Made by a program: the position numbers and the translations under genes
The notes under the pieces: generated by a model
What the model was told of the DNA's origin: nothing
The model's input: the letters and a program-made list of their open reading frames with translations, nothing else
Database searches by the model: none
In this document: positions 10,580-48,628 of the stretch, in pieces
Layout of the letters: each line of letters begins with the position of its first letter
How positions within the stretch are numbered: position 1 is the first letter of the stretch
From: Pseudogymnoascus verrucosus
Lineage: Eukaryota
Strand: one strand, 5' to 3'
NCBI GenBank assembly: GCA_001662655.1
Contig: KV460255.1
DNA length: 64,000 nt

Positions 10580-13500
10580 ATGGTTCAGCTTGGGAACATA
10601 TGGAGCCTGACTGGCAGCGCCCTCGCGTTTTCCTGTCTGCAGTCTATTAAAGTCTCGGCGAGCCCGACTATAAACGTTGCGTTGGCAGCTTCATTCACCT
10701 CTGCGCCATATCTTATCGAGTTGCTGTGAGTCCATCAATGCCGGTATTGGTCAATAACCATTACTAAATTGCCATAGTGAAACTGCCGGAGACGAAAATT
10801 CAACCTCATACTTCCCATTACTAGACCGAATCGCAGAGGGACACTTTAAAGATGCGAGAACAGACCTTGAATTGTACAACTCCTTCGTGAAGGTGCTCCG
10901 AGATGATGGACACCTCGACTCAGAGGGACTCGCATCCTATAGTCTTGCGCTTTCTCTGCGGACTTCTGCCCCAAGAATTGAAGCCCAATACCAATTTTAC
11001 GACACCGCTATTGAGCCGTCAGGAGACGATTCATCATGCCTCGCATGGGTTCTCTTTGGGGGCAAGAAGCATTGCTCTCCGGCACTAGACGAGGCCCATG
11101 GCACATATAATGGCCGAAGGTGAGACATTTATCATTTTTGGGGTCTTATGCAACTATCACTAATATAAACTAGAGGAACTGAACAGCTTCAATTTGATAG
11201 AATTACTGGGAATCTGTCCGCGCCAGCTTCCATTCTTTATGCTGATATTACGTCTCCGGAGTTTAGCCAATTCCATAAAAAATTAATCCAAAAAGCACAG
11301 AAACAAGAGATATCATACCGCATCCGCCACAAGAAGCCGACTGCTCAGGAACCCAGGCCTCTTATCATCGGTGGATATGGTGTCGAATTAGCTCTAAAGC
11401 GCACAGACTACATAGTCATTGATGATAGAGAAGCTGAGGCTCAAGTGCAAGTGGGGTCGGCAAAGGCAGAAGTTGTTCTTGAGGATGAAGAACTTGCGGA
11501 CTTGAAGCCGCTTTCGGCATCTGAACTGGTCTCTCTTGGGCTAAAAGCATCGAGTTTTATTATGCAAAACGAAAACCCCTTTGAGGTGTTGACTCGACTC
11601 TCGCAAGACTTTCCGAGATATTCATCGGCCATCGCCGCTCATAATGTATCATCTGATTTTGCCGAGGAGCATCTTTATAACCGCGGTCAGCTAGTGCCAG
11701 CCGGTACGAATGTTGTTTGGATCAATGGTTTGCAAGTACCGGCGAGGCACATGGATGCCTTCAGCATGCTTGACATACTGCGGAAGGAAAGGAAGCATTT
11801 GAAAAAGTTTTCTCAGCTCGGGTTGACCGGGTCGCAAACGATCAGCCTCCTGTCTCATAAAGATATTGCCTTTACAAAGGCTGACGGTGAACCTGCGAGG
11901 TTTGATTGGAGGGACAGCGACGGAGATGTCATCATATGGCTAAACAACATAGAAAAAGACAAGCGCTATGACGGATGGATGACAACTGTTAGAACGGTAT
12001 GTGGGAATTGCAAATATTAACTTTGGGGTTTACTGATAGCTCTGCAGCTTTTACAAGCAGGATATCCAGGGCAATTGCCTCAAGTACGGAAAGACCTGTT
12101 CAATCTGGTTTTCCCCGTCGACTTGTCAAATCTTGAGGATGTAGAACTCGTCGTCACCCAACTATCAGAATTTGTTAAAAGGGCATTGCCGTTACGATTC
12201 GGTCTGGTACCGCTGACAAACTCCAATGCTGCTCTTGAACAGGCCAAGATTGCCTATTACCTACTGGACAGTTACGGTTTGTCAACTATGGTGGCCTACC
12301 TCAACGGATATTTTGCCTCGAAGGGAACTCCATCGTCGAGAAATGCCAATTTTGAAGCTGCAATCGAGGAGCGTAAACTCCTGGGCGACAAAGTAGCCAA
12401 ATCATTGGAAGAGGTCCTGGACGCAGATGAAGCAAACGGGTCAATCGAACATTCGAAACAATGGAGCGCCAGACTTGGAGCAAACGACAAAGTACCCCCG
12501 GTGTTTGTGAATGGAGCTGCTGTGCCGCGCGATGAGACCTGGATGCAAGGGATGAGCCAGCGTGTTCAGATGGATCTCCGACTTATGCAGCAGGCAGTTT
12601 TCGAAAATACCGTGACTGATGATCACTGGCCTCCAATGCTGTACCTGCACGATGCCGCTTCTGGCCGAAACCCCTTTCTCATGCCGGAGAACGACAAAGA
12701 TCTTCAACTGTTTGATGTCAACGCCATTTACTCTGATTATGCCGAGGCATTGGAAGGCCTTCCTGTTATGAAAAGCGACCCCTCCACTGTGCAAGATGAC
12801 TGGGCATACATGATTCTGATAGCTGACGTGGAGAGCGCACAAGGCAAACGGCTTTTAATGGCGGCAGCTGAGTTCATCAAGAAGAACCCTTCAGTTGAAC
12901 TTGTTATTGTCCCCAGTTCAGAGTCTCCAGCAGGAATCTTGAGCGTACACGAGTATATGGCTAAAAGATCGTTCCAACCACTGAAATCTGTCGATGATTT
13001 GGATAGCCTTGTCGAAGCGGTGTCAATAACCGCTGGCGATGAAGAAAGGCAGATTACAACACAGATCTCGGAAAAATGGTCCGCGATAGAAGGCCTTGTG
13101 GGATCGTTGGGACTAAAACCTGGTCAACAAGGACTTCTGTTAAATGGTCGATTGGTCGGCCCAATTCCGAACGAGGTCGAGCTCGGAGTCAATGAATTGG
13201 ACCAGCTCCTCAGCTTTGAGCGAACCAAGAGAATCAAGCCTGTTTTGGCGGCTGTTAAAGCTCTCGGATTCTCCGATGCAATCAGCGACCCGCTGGCGAG
13301 CTCTAAACTCACATCACTTGTGACTTTGTCGTTTATTTCCAATGTCCCCGAGGGAATTTTCGAGCAAGCGTCTACTTTGAGAATCGACTCCTTCAAGGCC
13401 TGGAAATCCGAGTTTACGGCGATTGAAATCGGTGATGAGTCCACTGCTTCTATTCATATTCAAGTCGCGCTGGACCCGGCGAGTCAGGAATCCCAGCGCT

Positions 13501-15224
13501 CGATTCCAATCTTGAAGGTGCTGTCGGAGCTAGATGGAGTATACCTGAAACTGTTTCTCAACCCTAAGGATATACTCAAGGAGATCCCGATCAAGCGCTT
13601 CTACCGTTATGTCCTAGAGTCAAAGCCGATGTTTAATGCCGATGGCAGTTTGAAGGATATCAAAGCGCAGTTTGTGAGCGTTCCTCAGGAAGCTCTGCTG
13701 ACAGTGGGCATGGATGTGCCAGCTCCATGGCTTGTAGCACCGAAGCAATCTGTTACCGATTTGGACAACATCAAGTTGAGTTCCGTTAACGGCGATGTCA
13801 ATGCTGTCTACGAGTTACAGCACATCCTAATCGAAGGACACTCATCAGAGAAGGAGACCGGACAAGCTCCAAGAGGGGCCCAACTTCTCTTGGGTACTGC
13901 AGCCGATGCCCACTTTGCCGATACCATCATCATGGCCAACCTTGGTTACTTCCAATTCAAGGCGAATCCAGGATTCTACAAGATAAATCTCCAAGAGGGC
14001 CCCAGCTCCAAGATTTACAGCATCGACACCCTCGGAGCCTCAGGACGCGATGCCGCACAACCAGACGAAACCACCGAAATCTCCCTCATCAGCTTCCAAG
14101 GCCTGACCCTCTTCCCGCAACTCTCCCGCAACCCCGGCCAAGAAACCGAAGACGTCCTCGAGCCTACCACAGACCTAAAAGACGACATCGTCAGCAAGGG
14201 CCGCAAGCTCGCCCAAAACATCCTCAACTTCGGCAGCAAGAAGTCCACCACCGCGGTGCAAACCACGCAAGCGGAAATCAACATCTTCTCCGTCGCCAGC
14301 GGCCACCTCTACGAGCGCATGCTCAACATCATGATGGTCAGCGTGATGAAGCACACGAACCACACGGTGAAATTCTGGTTCATCGAACAATTCCTCTCCC
14401 CCTCCTTCAAGCAATCCATCCCCTCCCTCGCCGCGGCCTACGGCTTCGACTACGAGATGGTGACGTATAAGTGGCCTCACTGGCTGCGCGCGCAGTCCGA
14501 GAAGCAGCGCGAGATTTGGGGATACAAAATCCTCTTCCTCGACGTCCTGTTCCCCCTGTCCCTCGATAAAGTCATCTTCGTCGACGCAGACCAAATCGTG
14601 CGTACCGATATGCGGGAATTGGTTGATATCGACCTCCAAGGCGCCCCCTACGGCTTCACCCCCATGTGCGACTCCCGCACCGAAATGGAAGGCTTCCGCT
14701 TCTGGAAACAAGGGTACTGGAAATCCTTCCTGCGCGGGCTCCCCTACCACATCTCAGCCCTGTACGTCGTCGACCTTCGCCGCTTCCGCGAGATCGCCGC
14801 CGGCGACCGATTGAGGCAGCAATACCACCAACTCAGTGCCGACCCAGGGAGTCTGGCGAACCTGGACCAGGATCTGCCGAATCATATGCAGGCGCATCTT
14901 CCCATTTTTAGTCTGCCGCAGGAGTGGTTGTGGTGCGAGACTTGGTGTAGTGATGAGAGTCTCGCGGGGGCGAAGACGATTGATCTTTGTAATAACCCGT
15001 TGACGAAGGAGCCGAAGTTGGAGAGGGCTAGGAGGCAGGTGCCGGAGTGGGGGGTTTATGATGAGGAGATTGCAGGGGTTTTTAGGGCGGCGAAGAATGG
15101 GGGGGAGCAGGAGGTGGGGGCCAAGAACCAGAAGAGTAGGACACTGGAGGAGGAAGAGGGGAGGAATGAGAAGAGTAGGACTATGGAGGCGGAGACTACT
15201 AAGGGGGTGAAGGATGAGTTGTAG
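10580..15224 (+). CDS. UGGT: UDP-glucose:glycoprotein glucosyltransferase (GT24; UGGT/Gpt1/Kre5 family), multi-exon
   Basis: Signal peptide, GYGVELALKRTDY, INIFSVASGHLYER, IFVDADQ, LDQDLPN, WLWCETWC, DLCNNP and C-terminal KDEL. Confidence 0.96.
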
Positions 15225-22254: not shown

Positions 22255-24574
22255 ATGGCGGGGCAACAGAAGAACAACACAAAACCGGCGGCCAAGGGCA
22301 AGAAGATGGCGCCAAAGGCGAAGAAGGCTGATGAGCGCGAGGAGACGTTCCAGGCAGTGGTATGTAATATCTATTAGCTATTAATTTATCTTATTCTAAC
22401 TTGCGCCAGGTTTTGACAGACTCGTTCGAGACGCGCTTCCTCCCATTCTCACTGGAGCGACCAAGAGTGAGTTCTGCCCATGCGACGTTCAGATCTAGAT
22501 GCGCGGCGATCTTGCAATTTGTATAGCATTACATTGGCTAATATGAAAAAAGTGTCTTCTTCCAATCGGCAACACGCCAATGATTGACTATACCTTGGAG
22601 TTTCTTTCTTTCAACGGGATCAGAGAGGTCATTGTCTACTGCACGGCGCATACATTTGAAGTGGAAGCATATTTGCTGGCTTCAAAATGGAACCCTGCGA
22701 CCTCCTTCGCCTCGCCATTCTCAAGCCTTGAGTTCATTCATTCTCAGTCCACTTCATACGGAGATGCCATGAGAATGATTGATAGCCGCGGTATCATTAC
22801 TGGCGACTTCCTCTTGACTTACGCCGACGTTGTCTCGAACTTACCTATCGGCCCCATACTCCAGAAGCACCGAACGAGAAGGACCGACGATAAGAACGCG
22901 ATCATGACGGTCATCACAAGATACGGCGGGCCTGGGCTACACCGGGCGAAGCCTAAAGCGGTTGTCCCAGTGTTTGTCAACAACCCACGCAAAGTTCGCA
23001 TTCTTCACTATGATGAGATGACTCCATTCGACGAGAGGAAATACATTGACCTGCCAGTCGAGGTACTGGAGGAGCCTGAGTTTGAGATGCGTGGCGATTT
23101 GATTGACACGGGAATCGATATCTGCACTCCAGACGTCTTGGCTCTTTGGTCAGAGTCGTTCGACGCAGAGAAGCCACGATCCCAATTCCTTCACAATATC
23201 CTGAAGGATTACGAACTCAATGGAAAGACTATCCATATTGAAATCGTCGACAAGCATTACGCTGCAAGAGCTAGCACGCTCCAGATGTATGACTGCGTCA
23301 GCAAGGACATCCTTGGGCGATGGACGTTCCCAATGATTCCTGACAACAACTGGGTCATTGATCAAAAGTATAACCGTGGCGCTGGTGGTATAATCAAGGA
23401 AGACGGTGTTATCCTTGCCCGCAGCTGCAAGGTCGGCAAGAAGACGGTACTCGGGAGAGCAACCAGTATCGGCGACGGCACAGTTATCAGCAACTCTATC
23501 ATTGGCCGTAGGTGTCAAATCGGCAAGAACGTCGTCATCGAGGACTCCTATATCTGGGACGATGTTGTCGTAGAGGATGGGGCGCACATCCAGAAGTCCA
23601 TTATCGCCAGTGAAGCTGCGATTGGCAAATCCGCAGCCATCCTCGAAGGATCACTCATTTCATATTCCGTTCGAATCGGCAGCAACACTACAGTCAAGGC
23701 CGGCGAGCGCATAACTAGAGCAAAGCGCAAGCGCGAAGACGTTGATGGCGAGCCTCTTGCACGAGTGCCAGCAGACACCGCTATTGTCGGTGAAGGAGGC
23801 GATGGTTATGCCTACGAAGATGCTGAAGAGGATGAGAAGGATATCTGCCGTGATCTTCTCAGCACCCTTATCTACAGCACTGCACACCTCAACATCGCCG
23901 AAGACTCGTATTCCCAGATCGGATCCGATGCAGGCTCTGACGAGGATGAAGCCGAGGCACGCTCCCGACACTCAAGTTTCGCAAGCGCGGTATCTGATGA
24001 TGAGGCCTCGGGAGACGAGTCAAGTGGCGCAAACTTCCACAAGGACGCTGTTGCGGATGTGTTCAAGACTTTGAGCGAGAGCGGCGACTTCCACAACACC
24101 CGTGTAGAATTCACTTCCCTTCGTCTCAGTAATAACGCCACTGACCACCACATGCACCGTGCCATTGCAGTCGGTTTCATCAAGCGCATTGTGCAGCTCA
24201 TCGAGGGTGGTGCTGAGCCGCTCAAGGCCGTCAAACAGACACTTGCACAGGAAGGCGCCACGGCGTTCCTGTCTGATGTTGCCCTCGGTAGGGACAAGCG
24301 TGTCGGAGACCAGGCTGATCTCCTCACGAGCTTCCAAAAGGACCTCTGCAATCGTGATAAGGGAGAGGCTGTCCTCTTCAGTCTCTGCAAGGAGTTTTAC
24401 GACCTAGAAGTCATCGAAGAGGAGGGCTTCGAGGCATGGTGGAAGGACCCTAAGAGCAGCGAAACCGAGCACATGATACGTGTCAGGACGATGGCAGGTG
24501 GCTTCATTGCGTGGCTGGAGGAAGCGGAGGAAGAAGATAGCGATGATGATGAAGACGACGAAGACAGTGACTGA
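22255..24574 (+). CDS. GCD6: Translation initiation factor eIF2B epsilon subunit; two short 5' introns
   Basis: ETFQAV|VLTDSFETRFLPFSLERPR|CLLPIGNTPMIDYTLEFL, hexapeptide-repeat region, acidic W2 C-terminus (WLEEAEEEDSD). Confidence 0.95.
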
Positions 24575-25473: not shown

Positions 25474-26680
25474 TCAAATGTATCTCTTATCCGGATCCAC
25501 CTTATCCATCAACTCAATGCTCTTCTCGTACATAGTAAACACAATACCACCGCTAAGCATCAGTCTCACCAACCTCGGCAACGCTCCTGACCACAGCGTC
25601 AGGAAGCCCTCATTCCGCACAAGCTGACTCCCACAGTCCCAACTGTTCTTATACAGGTGCTTCGCCTCAATACTCTGCATGCGCGTCTTAATTGTGTCCA
25701 CGGGCTGCGTCACATACACCGTGATCAGGCCTGCGAGACCACCAATACCGAATGTGCTAGCTGCGCCCAGCTTCTCACCAGGCGCCACGTATGACTCTGC
25801 GATTTGCTTGAAGAAGTTGTACGACCCAAATCGTGTCGCCGAGTTGGCGGCCTGACGTGCCGTCGTCGGTACGAAACCTTGGAAGAAGCCACGAAGTCCG
25901 CGCTCTCGTGCGATGATGGGAACAGCATGGAGGAAACCGCGTAGGCGGGGCTTGGCAGCTTTGCGATCGTCGATCCTAGGAGTGTCAGCAGGCGCCATGG
26001 GGGGGGGGATAGAGAGGCCGTCTTACAGTGTGGTCTTGATGCTCTCGAATGGGGTCACGGCAAGCAACGACTCGGTCACACCAGCTCCGAAGCCGGCAAT
26101 GACGGTGCGAGGGCCGGAGATGTGGCCATTCTCATCTTGCAGCATGGACTTAAACTGGTCGAATGCCACGAACCGGACTCCAGCCTTCAGGGAGTTGCCG
26201 ATAATCAGCGTTGTGCAGCCGGCGTACCATGCGGGACCGAATTTTGGCCATGGGAGCTTATCGGCACCGGATAACCGTTGGTTGAGTTGTGTTCGGGTTT
26301 TGGCAACTATCTTCCTGTCAATATTTCCATCCTCTGGTATCAAGAGCGCATCCGGCCCACGAAGCTACGCGGAGCAATCTCTCCTGGGGCGGCACCGTGC
26401 TCTTTGAGGATCTCTAGAGAATCAACAGGTAGCATTTTCAGTCGTACGCCATAGCTTCGCAGTCGCTCGGAAGGGTTCCAACATACATTCAGCAGGGTAG
26501 GTAATAGCTACAATCACATTATTAGCCCATGCTCCAAAACACAGCCCACCACCAAACTCTGCTGTCAAGCAAGCTGCACTTACAAATTTCGACGGCACCA
26601 GCACTCGCCCCAGCTATCACCGAGCGGAGAGCGCTTGGCTTCTCCTTGCGCTTCTCCGGCGCCTTTGTCGTCGACGCCAT
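25474..26680 (-). CDS. CTP1: Mitochondrial citrate/tricarboxylate carrier, 4 exons
   Basis: SVIAGASAGAVEI|AITYPAEF|AKTRTQL, YAGCTTLIIGNSLKAGVRF, AVTPFESIKT, TTARQAANSATRF, GALPRLVRLMLSGGIVFTMYE. Confidence 0.92.
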
Positions 26681-27300
26681 GGCGCCTATATACCCGAGGG
26701 TGACTCTTTGCAATTGCCGATCCTCCAATGGCTTAGAGCCAACGGAAATATCTGGAGGGGCAAAGCAATTGAGCTATTACACGGAATCCGAAAGCGAAGG
26801 AAGGACAATTGAGCGAGTCGGCGAGAGAATGGCGTTGAGAATGTAGACCCCGCTACGATAGGAAATAAAGTTTTGACGAGGTCCGATGCGGCGTCGGCAA
26901 TTATGACGAAATATCTGGGGAACAGGGGCCCGCGGCTGCATTGACCTAGATTAGCGCTTAACGGAGCAACTTCGCGCCTCAAGACTCTAAACGCCCACAT
27001 CTCTTGTACAAATCCTACCATGGCAAATCGTGGGCTAGAACGTCAATGCGAGACAATAATATGACGGTATTATTTAAAATAAAATGTATAGCAAACGCAT
27101 TTATCATCAACGACTTCGTTATTTCGACATGGAGTTTAACCTCTCGCCGAATTGTTTTGTCCTCCTAAACAAGTGCAAAGCTTAACCCTTAAAAGGCACT
27201 TTGTTCAGTAGCCTCAATGTCGTTTGTCGTGGAATACATCACATATAGAGGAAAGCTAGGTCTCACGAGAATAATTTCCTATCTGTTTATACTCTGCCTC

Positions 27301-27543
27301 TCGTACTTTCCTATTTCTGTCCATGTTTGGCCCCGTTCCTTCCTATCTTTTATCCATATCACCTCTGGTTCTTTCCCAACTCAACCATCCATATTACCCA
27401 TCGTTCTTTCCTATCTCAATTCATATTGCTCTTCGTTCCTTCCTATATATATTTGCCCGCTCGTTCTTTCCTATATTGATCCATGTTGCCCTCTCGTCCA
27501 TTTCTATATATTTCCATATCTTTTACCTTAGTTCGTGCTTTCC
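27301..27543. repeat. Degenerate minisatellite, ~33-bp period, core TCGTTCTTTCCTAT
   Basis: Unit starts near 27301, 27334, 27367, 27401, 27433, 27461, 27494 and 27533. Confidence 0.8.
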
Positions 27544-27626
27544 GCGCTGCGTTTAGCTCTGCCTATCACATAAACGACGATATTATCTCTCTTCTCATAC
27601 ATTTCATCACGCTGTTTCTTACCAAT

Positions 27627-28166
27627 ATGTATGGTACCAGCACAATAATCAAAGCGACAAACGCTGTTGCCGCGGACACCCGTGATACCAGTCATTCGCT
27701 TCGCGAAACCACAAACACAATGGTTGTCGTATAGATACTGTGTGTCAGCTTAACTTTCTTCATCTGCATCAATGCATGGGCTATTCGGGCCTTTCGACAA
27801 CGCAAGCGCGACCAAGAAGCTATATCCGCCATCCTGGAGCGGGCAGAGTCGCCTGCTAGAGGGCCTACTACCATGGGAAGTCCAAGTACACAAAGCCAGT
27901 TCCGCTCATTTCAATTGAGCTATCAACTGCAAGCACTATCGTCGCCAAGTACGCCTCGCATATCGCCTCCAGAACGACCTACAAACGTGCCAGGTTACTC
28001 CTCGAATGATACAGAGCGGAACGATGAACGGCATTCCGTAGCCACTGGGAACATGGCCTCATCTTCTTACACACCCGACGAGACCGGGGAACAATTACCA
28101 AAGTACATGGAACGCGATCATGACTTGCCCGATTACGCGGATCAGAGGGCGGCGCCGGTAACATGA
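27627..28166 (+). CDS. Single-pass membrane protein (179 codons) with C-terminal LPxY motifs, interrupted by an in-frame TAG at 27732-27734 (pseudogene or editing-dependent gene)
   Basis: MYGTS...TNTMVVV*ILCVSLTFFICINAWAIRAFRQRKR...LPKYMERDHDLPDY...; the frame is open for 143 codons after the TAG. Confidence 0.6.
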
Positions 28167-29587
28167 TGGGTGAAGAGAACTACGGACTTGTCCACTCGAG
28201 AAGATCAGATGATTGAAGCTCTCTATGGTCCAGCGAACTTTGGATTGGATAGGAGATCCAAAAAATCGGTAAAACAGTTTTTGGCGACGTCGTTATGAGT
28301 CTATGGTTAGAATGACAAACATCGTCAAACCACTGCACCAGGTGCACCAGAAACGATATGGCGCTTGGAACCGCGGAAATGGTGGTAAGTGCCGAAAGCC
28401 GAGCAGTTTTAATTCCGCGCTGACGGTACTACCACCAGATATGCTGGGAAATATTATTTTTGCCCGATGGGCTAGTTCCGGCATATGAATTAGAATGCAG
28501 CACAGCCAGCGTAATACAAAATAGCATGAATACAACACGTATTAACCATGCCTCAAGCTTTTCAACACTAATGGAAGAATCTCATGGCCTATACTCATTA
28601 TAAGATATGATTGAACTGGCGTGATGCTACTTTGAGGATGTATCAATGGAGGAGTAAGGTTCGGGAAGTGGGGTGATGCGGGGGTGGGATGGTTGGATTG
28701 CATGTTGCTCCTGACTAATTATGAGCGACGACGAACTCATTCTCAGGAGAGAGAGCACTGAGCGGAGGTTGAAGTCCGAGGAATTTATCACCAGACTCAA
28801 GCTTTAGTACTTTACGAATGCTCGCTATAGTGCGAGTTTTGTAACTTTATAGCGGCCATGCTCGACCAAAGCTTTATTAGACCAAGCTGATATAGGGTTT
28901 GGGGGGTCACAAGCCAGAAAATGTGACATCAAGCGCCGGCTACAGGCGGCGCGGAGGGCCTTCCCGGGCTTGGTCGCTCCTCCGTCGGCACCAAATCGAG
29001 AGCTCCCGGACCAGATAATGGTCTAAGACAATAGACCAGCACGTTAAAGTCGTTAGAGTCGTTGAAGTAATGTACCCACCGAATAAGGAAATCCGTTGAA
29101 TATTAGATGAAGAAAGAGGTAGTAGCATAGTCTACTAACGATGCGCTACTAGAGACGATCTATATTTTTGACTAAAACCCCAGGGGTCGAGCTCTGATAG
29201 CCTCTTGTTGTGGTCTATGGAATCTGGGGGAACGCGTCATGACGGTTAATTTGACGTCGAAGGACCATATCAAAATCCATTTGGCTCATAGAACAGTAGA
29301 ACAGGTAGGGCTTTGGGCCTCACCTCCGTTTTGCTACACAACCTTACTACCTCGTGAGTATCGCCAGCCTTATTCAACAACTAGGCTGCTTTAACAGCAT
29401 TGCGAGCCATCACGATCACTGTCACGAGCGTGGCCCTCTCCCTAGGCTTGTGTCCTGCTTCCAATTATTTCTTAAGACATCTTATTCTGCCGAATCCCAA
29501 AATAATTTTGCGTTCAGTTGCTCTGTTCTGCAGTGGTCAGTTTAAATTGTTCAGTTCATTTATATTCAATTGTATTTGTATATTACG

Positions 29588-45810: not shown

Positions 45811-47143
45811 GAGACCTTCATAGCGCCGACGCCGGCAGAAGATGTCCTCACTAGCGACAAGATACAATTCAGTCACGAGTGCGAACATGTCACAGCAAGG
45901 GCATTGGTCGATATAAGGTGAAAGCGAGGATCACTTCGGACGGCCTGATCATAACATCACGCTAGTTTGGGTGGTTATCGAGCTTGGGTTATCTGTGTGC
46001 TCAGTCTTTGTTTTTACAACCAAAACATCGGGCGTTCAACAACAGATCCAAGACGCTTTAGTCGTCTTTTGTGGGCCACTTCAACACGGTCCACAATTTC
46101 CTTTGTCAAATGCTTCAAGTGCTTCCATTGTTCTGGATTGTTGCGATAAGTATCGCGTTGCTGTCCCTCGATATGACGAGAATACCGAGGATGAAACCTA
46201 ATATTAGCTTTCGCTTTGGGCAGCAACACCACTATTTCGTGGGCACCCAGCGCACCTGCACCCAGTTTTGGTATGCTAGTATGCTGGTGTGCCCTCGACT
46301 CACTGTCCAACTACATAGCTAAATAGCCCGTAGAGACGTCGGACTTACTCCGCGCCAAGGGCAAATAAGTGAGATATTCATGCCCATCATGCTCGACCCA
46401 TTGTCGACCCATTGCCGACCCACTAGGATTCTGGGCCTCAAAGTGCGCAAGAATCCCGCATCATGTACCAGGATATGCCAGGGATATGCCCCATATATGA
46501 CTTGCCAAATGCTTCAGCTAATTCGCCATTTACAAAATAGCGCTCTAGCTATACTCTAACTATACTCAAGCTATACCATTGGATTCTCGTTGCTGACCTA
46601 GAGCCCCATTTTCATACCGATTTCGTAGCCTTCACCTTTTCATTCGGTGCTGTGTCGTCTGTGTGCCGTCAACTGGCAGCCAATGACTTTGTCGAGGCTG
46701 CCGGGGATATGCAACACCATGCTTCCGACCAAACGTTGCTACCCCACCGAGACGTGGCACACTTACAGCTGTACACTGAAAATGGCCTATGTTTCCAACG
46801 GCAGAAATGTACAGAAAGGTGAAGGCCTTACCGTACATGAATTTGCTCCAGTGCGGATTATCCTAGACTCATGCGTGCTACGCTGCTTCTGCAGCTTCAA
46901 GTCAAATTGCAAGGTGAGTGGTTGCCACTGAGCTTCACATGGGCCACAAGAACGAGTTTGAAGATTAGATGGCCTCACAGCTGCCGCCTCGTCTCATCGT
47001 GCATACAGCCATATAATGGTACCTTTTCCCTTCTGTCTTGCAGAGCATAACATTCTCTTCACTCGCGCTTCTATTCACTTGCGATCACTTCATCATTCCC
47101 TCTCTACACATCTCTCTCAAGCACCAAAACCCTCACCGCATCA

Positions 47144-48628
47144 ATGATTCCCACCATTGAAGTCTCCCACCTCCCCTCCTCCTCCTCCTTCTACGCCGCC
47201 GTCACCCAACCCCTCGGCATCCACTTCCTCTGCGCCTCCCCCTCCTCCCCTCACTCCCTACACTTTGGCATCCCCGCCCAACCCTCCGAAATCCTCTTCA
47301 CCCTCACCGAATCCCACTCCCCCCGCCCCTCAACCCTCTCCCTCACCGCCTCAAACTCTACCCAGGTCGCCAACTTCCACGCCCTCGCCCTCGAGTCAAA
47401 CACCCGCCACTCCACAAACCTCATCCAGCACTCCGCCGACACCTCAGTCGCCAAAACAACAGACCATGACGGCAACATGCTCGAGGTCCGCTACGCGCGT
47501 AGCACGCCCCGCCGCGGCTCTGTCCACGCGGCGCCAACTACTATCACCACCGCCTCGACTGCAAAGGAGGCCCGCAGAGTCCTAGACTGGCAGCGCGACG
47601 TTGCTCGCTCCATCTCCTCCCAATCCCCCACTCAAAGCCGCGACGGAAGCCCCGAGCGGGCCATGGTCCTCGCACAGCCAGTGCAGGAGGAGGCAGCACC
47701 ATCGCAGGTCGCGCCCCCAACAGAGGTACCAGACGCGCGCCCCGCCCTCCTCAGAAGCGCGACTACGCCCATGATGACGGCTATGTACAATGAAGTCTCC
47801 TCCGCCCTACCCGAGCGCATTGGAGAGGGCCTCTCTGCCCAGGCTATCATCGGGACTATCCTCGGCGCTGCAGCTGGCGCTGCAGTTGCCTACGCCATGG
47901 TTCGCAGCGAGGAGCCAGAGCCACAGCGTCCACAGCTCGTAACCTATTTCTCCGCCCCCGCTGCGCAGTTTCCACAGCAGGCGCCTGTCATGGAGGTAGC
48001 GCGCTCCAAGGCGCCGTCGATGGGCGGGTCAAGGGTGGGGAGTGAGAGGAGCCAGGGCGGGCAGCGGTACGTGCTTCGCTACAATGTCGCGAGCAATGCT
48101 GGTACCAGTCGGGGAGGGAGAGAGGGCGTGCTCCAGCCAGTAGACGAGAGGAGGAGTATGAGTTACTCCGCCTACGACGGCGGACGGAGCCAAGCACCCG
48201 CGCCTAGCCAGGCTTCGACGGCGAAACAATCCCGTTATACTGAGAGGGATGTTGGATATGAGAAGCCCGTTACGGTTGTTAGTGCGTCCCGCCACTCTGA
48301 GGCGGGGAGGCACTCTGAGAGTGGAAGAAGCCATGTGAGCAAAAGGAGCGATTCGACTATCAAACCCGCACGCACGAGCTCGAAAGCCGGAACGGAACGC
48401 CGTGACCAGACTGTGGTGAGCATGAAGAGTGACAGGAAGAGCACGACTGTCAGCGAGCGGGCGCGCAGGGTGCCGCTCCCGGAGAGCGTGATGGGGGGGA
48501 GTATGGCGCCTAGTGAGCGCGCGCGAAGGGTGCCGCTGCCGGAGAGTGTGGCGGGGAGCGTGGCACCGAGTGATAGTATTAGTAATATTGGGATGAGGAG
48601 CCATTACAGCAGGCGGGATGTGTATTGA
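47144..48628 (+). CDS. Hypothetical protein: N-terminal VOC/glyoxalase-like region, central hydrophobic GTILGAAAGAAVAYAM segment, disordered S/R-rich tail
   Basis: 494-aa ATG ORF; EVSHLPSSSSFYAAVTQPLG and DHDGNMLEV resemble VOC-fold ends. Confidence 0.75.
   Translation: MIPTIEVSHLPSSSSFYAAVTQPLGIHFLCASPSSPHSLHFGIPAQPSEILFTLTESHSPRPSTLSLTASNSTQVANFHALALESNTRHSTNLIQHSADTSVAKTTDHDGNMLEVRYARSTPRRGSVHAAPTTITTASTAKEARRVLDWQRDVARSISSQSPTQSRDGSPERAMVLAQPVQEEAAPSQVAPPTEVPDARPALLRSATTPMMTAMYNEVSSALPERIGEGLSAQAIIGTILGAAAGAAVAYAMVRSEEPEPQRPQLVTYFSAPAAQFPQQAPVMEVARSKAPSMGGSRVGSERSQGGQRYVLRYNVASNAGTSRGGREGVLQPVDERRSMSYSAYDGGRSQAPAPSQASTAKQSRYTERDVGYEKPVTVVSASRHSEAGRHSESGRSHVSKRSDSTIKPARTSSKAGTERRDQTVVSMKSDRKSTTVSERARRVPLPESVMGGSMAPSERARRVPLPESVAGSVAPSDSISNIGMRSHYSRRDVY

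What the first reader, a model, noticed from the sequence alone, without database searches (positions are those of the whole stretch)
27627..28166. Hidden membrane-protein gene with an in-frame UAG inside its transmembrane helix (candidate A-to-I restorative editing target)
Seen: the ORF track splits this into two unrelated pieces, but ATG 27627 to TGA 28166 is one frame with a single TAG at 27732-27734. The stop lies in a hydrophobic run, MVVV*ILCVSLTFFICINAWAI, followed by a basic stop-transfer patch (RAFRQRKR) and two LPxY motifs near the C-terminus. The stop sits in the loop of a minimal GTA-TAGA-TAC hairpin, and I see no CTRAC branch point upstream that would make the TAG a splice acceptor. 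Established: in Fusarium graminearum and Neurospora, sexual-stage A-to-I mRNA editing prefers U at -1 and converts premature UAG to UGG (Trp); PY motifs bind Rsp5-type ligases. Inference: Trp fits this helix well, so the gene could be an editing-gated Rsp5-adaptor-like protein.
Basis: partly seen in the sequence, partly recalled or inferred. Interest (0 to 1): 0.75.

Follow-up and report, generated by a model that had tools for sequence, protein, structure and literature searches.

The report
Young nonsense allele in fungal gene
A small membrane-protein gene of a Pseudogymnoascus-type fungus carries a real stop codon where close relatives have tryptophan in their DNA; this is likely an ordinary, recent loss-of-function mutation rather than an RNA-editing switch.

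Summary
In detail: ATG 27627 to TGA 28166 is one frame with a single TAG at codon 36, inside a hydrophobic helix. The gene is real: named homologues are all Pseudogymnoascus (Leotiomycetes), dN/dS is about 0.4, and both LPxY motifs are invariant in 37 of 37 database proteins. The TAG is probably no assembly error: 2 of 4 laid runs show it. But it is not conserved: the other two runs, 98-99% identical, and a distant locus have TGG in DNA. The editing reading fails three tests. The stop is confined to a near-identical lineage. The claimed hairpin is unstable (+2.0 kcal/mol, probability 0.002 or less). The genome's one Ame1-group cofactor found carries KN, the residue pair shown not to support editing, where a Sordariomycete has MV (PMC11087585). 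No sexual-stage RNA was available, so editing is not excluded directly. Best reading (0.85): a recent TGG>TAG null allele of a genus-restricted single-pass PY-motif protein, likely an Rsp5 adaptor or cargo by architecture. Interest is low.

The parts
27627..28166 (+). Single-exon frame of a genus-restricted single-pass membrane protein, 179 codons, broken by one stop
   Evidence: Met at this start in 30 of 37 database proteins; single copy in G000
27732..27734 (+). Premature TAG at codon 36, derived from TGG by G>A at 27733
   Evidence: A in runs X1 and X2, G in runs X3 and X6; TGG in L002; W in 34 of 37 database proteins
27720..27785 (+). Predicted transmembrane helix, codons 32-53
   Evidence: Kyte-Doolittle 19-mer means up to 2.44; conserved in alignment A1
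27786..27809 (+). Basic patch RAFRQRKR, predicted cytosolic side (positive-inside rule, established knowledge)
28095..28106 (+). LPKY, first LPxY motif
   Evidence: invariant in 37 of 37 database proteins
28125..28136 (+). LPDY, second LPxY motif
   Evidence: L, P and Y invariant in 37 of 37
27483..27626 (+). Open in-frame upstream stretch from ATG 27483 (48 codons, weak start context); possible alternative start
   Evidence: used as start by P0002, P0017 and, similarly, P0004, P0023
27873..27875 (+). In-frame ATG (codon 83, A at -3 and G at +4); possible re-initiation site for a 97-aa soluble tail
   Evidence: only partly conserved in A1
27729..27806 (+). 78-nt GT..AG stretch whose removal gives database protein P0006 exactly; read here as a gene-predictor intron that bridges the stop
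   Evidence: it removes most of the helix that 34 of 37 database proteins keep; nearest branch-like site is about 50 nt from the AG
27729..27738 (+). Claimed GTA-TAGA-TAC hairpin; not a stable structure

Best explanation
The frame is a real single-pass membrane-protein gene whose tryptophan codon 36 has changed from TGG to TAG in one near-identical lineage, likely giving an ordinary null allele that is not repaired by editing. Shown: the frame, the stop, TGG in close relatives' DNA, purifying selection over the gene's history, invariant LPxY motifs, and KN in the one Ame1-group gene found. Inferred: the intact protein inserts with a short N-terminus outside and a disordered cytosolic tail whose two LPxY motifs bind the WW domains of the Rsp5 ligase, as an adaptor or cargo in the manner of yeast Rcr1/Rcr2. 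Also inferred: in this lineage translation stops after 35 codons, inside the helix, and the mRNA is probably cleared by nonsense-mediated decay; the allele persists because the gene is dispensable enough and the lineage largely clonal.
For: TAG in 2 of 4 laid runs, both identical to the window over 1201 bases (52x and 193x contig depth); G at 27733 in the other 2, which differ by only 13 and 19+2 letters. TGG in L002 at dS about 0.6, so the stop is very young against the gene's age. The closest database proteins differ from the window by 2-4 other residues and have W (P0017, P0018, P0002). W36 in 34 of 37 proteins. dN/dS against L002 is 0.42 (bootstrap 0.28-0.63), with 1 gap run in the CDS against 27 in the 3' flank at equal identity. 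The Ame1-group gene L003 matches at 100% over the searched region a cluster holding XP_024324723.1 and XP_018126011.1, the Pseudogymnoascus Ame1 orthologues listed in PMC11087585 Data-6. It has KN 30 residues before the catalytic Ser, where the Sordariomycete P0156 has MV. PMC4438637 (abstract and passages) reports mainly clonal evolution and 137 pseudogenes in its 14 strains.
Against: No RNA data, so neither decay nor lack of editing is shown. Both TAG runs are flagged as possible sources of the window, so at most one is independent. Only 4 of 20 holder rows were laid. Protein databases cannot show a stop, so the 34 of 37 count is biased towards W. The gene was under purifying selection, so a null is not free; too few changes exist on the TAG branch to test relaxation. 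In Fusarium, true edited stops were also hidden by wrongly predicted introns (PMC5496914 passage), as here with P0006, and most arose from TGG (PMC10776026 section 9). The Rsp5 link rests on motifs only.
Confidence: 0.85

Rival explanations
1. Restorative A-to-I editing: in sexual tissue UAG is edited to UGG and the full protein is made, as for Fusarium PSC pseudogenes.
For: Trp is the ancestral residue. Most Fusarium PSC stops came from TGG (PMC10776026 section 9). Some Pseudogymnoascus lineages make ascospores (PMC4438637). Pezizomycetes edit by an independent origin (PMC10776026 passage), so an Ame1-MV-independent route exists. The A is mostly unpaired in the folds (0.54-0.94).
Against: Leotiomycete host; editing not found in Botrytis apothecia (PMC11156358) and SsAME1 does not complement (PMC11087585). 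KN in the one Ame1-group gene found. TAG absent at 1-2% divergence. Hairpin unstable. U at -1 and G at +1 come with any UAG, and +3 is U, not the preferred A or G.
Confidence: 0.03
2. The allele is hypomorphic, not null: leaky readthrough gives some full-length protein, or ribosomes re-initiate at ATG 27873 and make a soluble 97-aa LPxY tail.
For: The upstream frame from ATG 27627 is only 35 codons; ATG 27873 has A at -3 and G at +4; both LPxY motifs lie downstream.
Against: UAG-AUA-C is not a known leaky context (recalled, not tested). Met 83 is only partly conserved. A tail without its helix loses the conserved architecture.
Confidence: 0.06
3. The stop is spliced out: either the 78-nt GT..AG stretch implied by P0006 is a real intron, or the TAG is a 3' splice site.
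For: P0006 equals the window protein minus codons 35-60, with GT and AG ends; P0015 also lacks the helix.
Against: The splice would delete most of the helix kept in 34 of 37 proteins. The donor GTATAG does not fit the consensus pattern used, and no branch site sits near either candidate acceptor. In relatives the TAG is TGG, so it cannot be a conserved acceptor.
Confidence: 0.03
4. The TAG is a sequencing or assembly error.
For: Both runs with TAG are flagged as possible sources of the window, and only contigs, not raw reads, were seen.
Against: Two runs from two studies and two organism labels both give A at 52x and 193x. Database model P0006, otherwise identical, skips exactly this codon, which suggests a further assembly with the stop (its DNA not seen).
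Confidence: 0.02

Closest known systems
Fusarium graminearum PSC pseudogenes (PUK1, AMD1, FgRID, FgAMA1 and others; PMC10776026, PMC11156358)
   Same: Single in-frame UAG at an ancestral Trp codon; stop masked by a predicted intron in a database model (P0006, inferred).
   Different: Host class not known to edit; Ame1-group gene has KN, not MV; stop not shared beyond a near-identical lineage; no stable hairpin; no RNA evidence.
Small type-I PY-motif membrane proteins: yeast Rcr1/Rcr2, fly Comm, human PRRG4 (PMC7401822, PMC5578492, passages)
   Same: Short luminal N-terminus, one helix, basic patch, low-complexity tail with two L/PPxY motifs; G000 has an Rsp5-like gene with three WW matches followed by HECT-like sequence (HECT recognised from memory).
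   Different: No significant sequence similarity: Pfam Comm only E 0.1 or weaker in 6 of 15 members, below cut-off. Family limited to Pseudogymnoascus in the searches run. Binding untested.
Lineage-specific pseudogenes of Pseudogymnoascus (PMC4438637)
   Same: A gene intact in sister lineages and broken in one; 137 pseudogenes reported in 14 strains.
   Different: Whether this gene is in their list was not checked (supplements not opened).

Membership tests
PSC (restorative A-to-I editing) pseudogene | In-frame UAG in an otherwise intact coding frame | tested here: met
PSC (restorative A-to-I editing) pseudogene | A>G in sexual-stage RNA against matched DNA | not testable with these tools
   No listed holder is on record as RNA; only contigs laid
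PSC (restorative A-to-I editing) pseudogene | Editing-competent Ame1 (MV at the Tad3 interface) | tested here: not met
   The one Ame1-group gene found has KN; Sordariomycete P0156 has MV at the same offset. Searches give lower bounds, so a missed copy is possible; PMC11087585 Data-6 part 1 of 2 plus a term search list one orthologue per Pseudogymnoascus species. The second DUF726 gene (L004/L005, 37% identical) has LV here and is read, from memory, as the Mil1-type paralogue.
PSC (restorative A-to-I editing) pseudogene | Stop shared across related species or an ancestral node | tested here: not met
   TGG in X3 and X6 (1-2% divergent) and L002
PSC (restorative A-to-I editing) pseudogene | Edited A in a hairpin loop with preferred flanks (a preference, not a rule) | tested here: not met
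   Claimed hairpin +2.0 kcal/mol, probability 0.002 or less; +3 base is U. The A is often unpaired, though not in the claimed hairpin.
Rcr1/Comm/PRRG-like PY-motif membrane adaptor | One transmembrane helix with a cytosolic C-terminal tail | tested here: met
   Hydropathy and charge only; a prediction
Rcr1/Comm/PRRG-like PY-motif membrane adaptor | Conserved L/PPxY motifs in the tail | tested here: met
   37 of 37 database proteins
Rcr1/Comm/PRRG-like PY-motif membrane adaptor | Sequence homology to a known family | tested here: not met
   No Pfam hit at E 0.1 for P0001; Comm below cut-off; no PDB hit better than E 0.6
Rcr1/Comm/PRRG-like PY-motif membrane adaptor | Binds Rsp5 WW domains and directs cargo ubiquitination | not testable with these tools
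   Needs a binding or trafficking assay; no complex prediction was obtained

The most novel reading that the evidence does not exclude
Pseudogymnoascus edits mRNA A-to-I in its ascomata by a route that does not need MV-type Ame1, and this very young TGG>TAG is a restorative-editing site caught at birth, still polymorphic among near-identical lineages: the first editing target in Leotiomycetes. A possible second lesion in the same helix in another lineage (P0015) would then be a parallel origin.
Probability: 0.03. Interest if true: 0.8.

Novelty: new member of a known kind. Interest (0 to 1): 0.12.

Why it matters
As read here it matters little: it is one more lineage-specific nonsense allele, plus a note that an unnamed Pseudogymnoascus family has the build of an Rsp5 adaptor and that database model P0006 probably hides a stop behind a false intron. 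If editing were shown, it would extend fungal mRNA editing to a class where it is reported as not found, contradict the Ame1 KN-to-MV model as the only route in this clade, and give a segregating TAG/TGG pair with which to test the harm-permitting model directly.

Tried and rejected
Expression: no RNA holder listed among 24 runs; no evidence either way. Split forms: a search for shorter proteins (30-83 aa) with A1 scored none of 177 candidates, and it did not cover the 97-aa tail; the three window fragments are not in the protein collection. Metagenome scan: only 1 locus (L002) among 317 pattern matches, so no population count of TAG versus TGG. Second null allele in X6: a one-base deletion at 27679 would end the frame after 41 codons, but both X6 deletions lie in homopolymer runs, the in-frame ATG at codon 32 lies downstream, and database protein P0018 with the same three residue changes is intact; not counted. 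RIP as cause: TGG>TAG is a TpG>TpA change, but the gene is single-copy and 27733 is the only place where the window has A and both relatives G; rejected. Editing marker genes: none of 7 DNA-methyltransferase matches in G000 holds an in-frame TAG; RID was not singled out, so this is weak. No complex prediction of tail with WW domains and no ESM Atlas look-up were obtained, and no structure was predicted. Literature: searches for Pseudogymnoascus with RNA editing (1 hit, unrelated by title), with nonsense mutation (2 hits, unrelated by title), and A-to-I with mRNA editing and Helotiales (0) found no report; the library lacks most subscription papers. Earlier scan notes: none. PMC10776026's supplement held as text does not name Pseudogymnoascus; its figures were not visible.

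Full report
Observation. The window reads ATG at 27627, one TAG at 27732-27734 (codon 36) and TGA at 28164-28166 in a single frame. The ORF caller gives two pieces, 27483..27734 and 27873..28166. The stop lies in the strongest hydrophobic stretch (residues 32-50, Kyte-Doolittle mean 2.44), followed by RAFRQRKR and, near the end, LPKY and LPDY. No CTRAY-type branch site lies upstream within the scanned 27601-27830. The hairpin is in the letters only: +2.0 kcal/mol, pair probabilities 0.002 or less in 7 of 7 windows, and a third of all TAG triplets in the window (428 of 1297) have some 3-bp stem round the A.

What the gene is. The read-through protein found 14 homologous clusters among 34 candidates; every one with an organism name is Pseudogymnoascus. 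A full HMMER scan of 1.84 billion representatives found only 2, both among those 14. The gene is single-copy in G000. It has no Pfam hit at E 0.1. Of 37 database proteins (P0002-P0038; P0039 came later and was not counted), 34 have W at codon 36, and L-P-x-Y of both motifs is invariant in all 37. The three without W are a 71-aa fragment and two gene models that skip the helix. Against the one distant locus whose DNA I hold (L002), dN/dS is 0.42 (bootstrap 0.28-0.63), 0.39 downstream of the stop, and lowest over the PY region (4 non-synonymous against 9 synonymous changes, the latter saturated). The CDS has 1 gap run against 27 in the 3' flank at about the same identity. So it is a real, moderately constrained, genus-restricted gene. 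This is one pair, and it mostly measures history before the stop arose.

Is the stop real, and how old is it? I laid 4 of the 24 listed runs (20 hold the stretch or part of it). X1 and X2, from two studies and two organism labels, equal the window over all 1201 bases, TAG included, at 52x and 193x. X3 and X6 differ by 13 and by 19 letters plus 2 gaps, and both have G at 27733, that is TGG. Both TAG runs are flagged as possible sources of the window, so at most one is independent, and contigs are not raw reads. Database model P0006 equals the window protein minus codons 35-60, a 78-nt GT..AG stretch; the simplest reading is an assembly with the same stop and a predicted intron round it (inference; DNA not seen). 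P0017, P0018 and P0002 differ from the window at only 2-4 other residues and have W. With dS about 0.6 to L002 and 1-2% divergence to the nearest TGG carriers, the stop is very young. Protein databases cannot show stops, so the W count is biased; the DNA-level tally is TAG in 2 runs and TGG in 3 sources.

Can this fungus edit? From papers: genome-wide A-to-I editing is reported for Sordariomycetes and Pyronema, and was not identified in Botrytis cinerea apothecia (PMC11156358, parts 1 and 2 of 3 read). It needs Tad2-Tad3 plus Ame1; the Sclerotinia orthologue does not complement, and changing MV500-501 to the ancestral KN gives the deletion-like defect (PMC11087585, section 17 and passages). 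All Fusarium PSC stops arose at ancestral nodes within Sordariomycetes, though single species of other classes, mainly Erysiphe necator among Leotiomycetes, also show stops at such sites with editing undetermined (PMC10776026, section 9 and passages). I tested the cofactor here. G000 has two DUF726 genes. L003 matches at 100% over the searched region a cluster that holds the two Pseudogymnoascus accessions in the paper's Ame1 table. It reads KN 30 residues before the catalytic serine. Among the 120 best hits, 115 fit the motif pattern: 83 KN, 22 KS, 5 MN, and one each of KT, KA, KR, LN and MV. The MV is the Sordariomycete Pleurostoma protein listed in the paper's table, which validates the position. 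Against my reading: the second DUF726 gene has LV at the aligned place; it is only 37% identical, and I take it from memory for the Mil1-type paralogue, untested. Genome searches are lower bounds. Pezizomycetes edit by an independent origin, so KN does not strictly exclude editing. Passages of two 2026 papers and the AMD1 paper report no Leotiomycete editing. Pseudogymnoascus is mainly clonal, some lineages make ascospores, and 137 pseudogenes were counted in 14 strains (PMC4438637, abstract and passages).

Mechanism. Shown: an intact gene across the genus, a G>A change in one lineage, no conserved stop, no stable hairpin, a non-editing form of Ame1. Inferred: the intact product is a small single-pass protein with its tail in the cytosol; PY motifs of consensus P/L-P-x-Y bind Rsp5 WW domains (PMC7401822 and PMC5578492, passages), and G000 has a gene with three WW matches followed by HECT-like sequence (HECT recognised from memory). 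It would thus act as an Rsp5 adaptor or cargo, like Rcr1/Rcr2. It is not a member of those families by sequence: Comm scores only E 0.1 or weaker in 6 of 15 members. In the TAG lineage translation would end after 35 codons, 429 nt before the normal stop, and the mRNA would likely be subject to nonsense-mediated decay (established knowledge, untested here). I put this at 0.85. Leaky readthrough or re-initiation at ATG 27873 gets 0.06, editing 0.03, splicing 0.03, assembly error 0.02.

Loose ends. P0015 equals P0014 minus 17 residues of the helix. By my own reasoning, no GT..AG intron can give that from DNA ending in a TGG codon, so that assembly probably has a lesion there, either a stop at the second Trp or a frameshift. 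I could not see its DNA. If real, it is a second break in the same gene, which fits a dispensable gene best but also fits repeated editing-permitted stops. The X6 deletion is ambiguous and was not counted. No sexual-stage RNA, raw reads or binding prediction was available, so the editing and Rsp5 questions stay open to direct test.

Verdict. Observation confirmed; interpretation partly supported for the protein's architecture and not supported for editing. New member of a known kind: a young nonsense allele in an unnamed PY-motif membrane-protein family. Interest 0.12; the editing case has probability about 0.03 and would merit 0.8.

Noticed in passing
P0015 (KFY28828.1) versus P0014: The model lacks exactly 17 residues of the helix, ending at the second Trp, and is otherwise identical to P0014; this implies a stop or frameshift bridged by a predicted intron in another lineage (inference, DNA not seen).
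   Followed up: partly
window 27679 in run X6: One-base deletion in a CCC run within the coding frame; a real frameshift or a homopolymer error, as a second deletion lies in an A run at 28260.
   Followed up: partly
window 27260-27530: Pyrimidine-rich degenerate repeats of 33-35 bp upstream of the gene, overlapping the open in-frame stretch from ATG 27483.
   Followed up: no
L004/L005 (G000:C15:484925-485987): Second DUF726 gene has LV at the place aligned with Ame1's KN/MV pair.
   Followed up: partly
P0120, P0135, P0141, P0143, P0145, P0147: Six Ame1-group hits, two named as Hymenoscyphus albidus and Oculimacula yallundae, have MN or LN, half-way between KN and MV; better candidates than this genome for asking whether any Leotiomycete edits.
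   Followed up: no
window 22580-24574 (+) and 25474-25998 (-): Neighbours are an eIF2B-epsilon gene and part of a mitochondrial carrier gene; no functional link to the finding.
   Followed up: partly
window 11562-15224 (+) and 46871-48628 (+): Long frames joined across a single TAA (152+1067 and 59+525 codons); probably introns, not checked.
   Followed up: no
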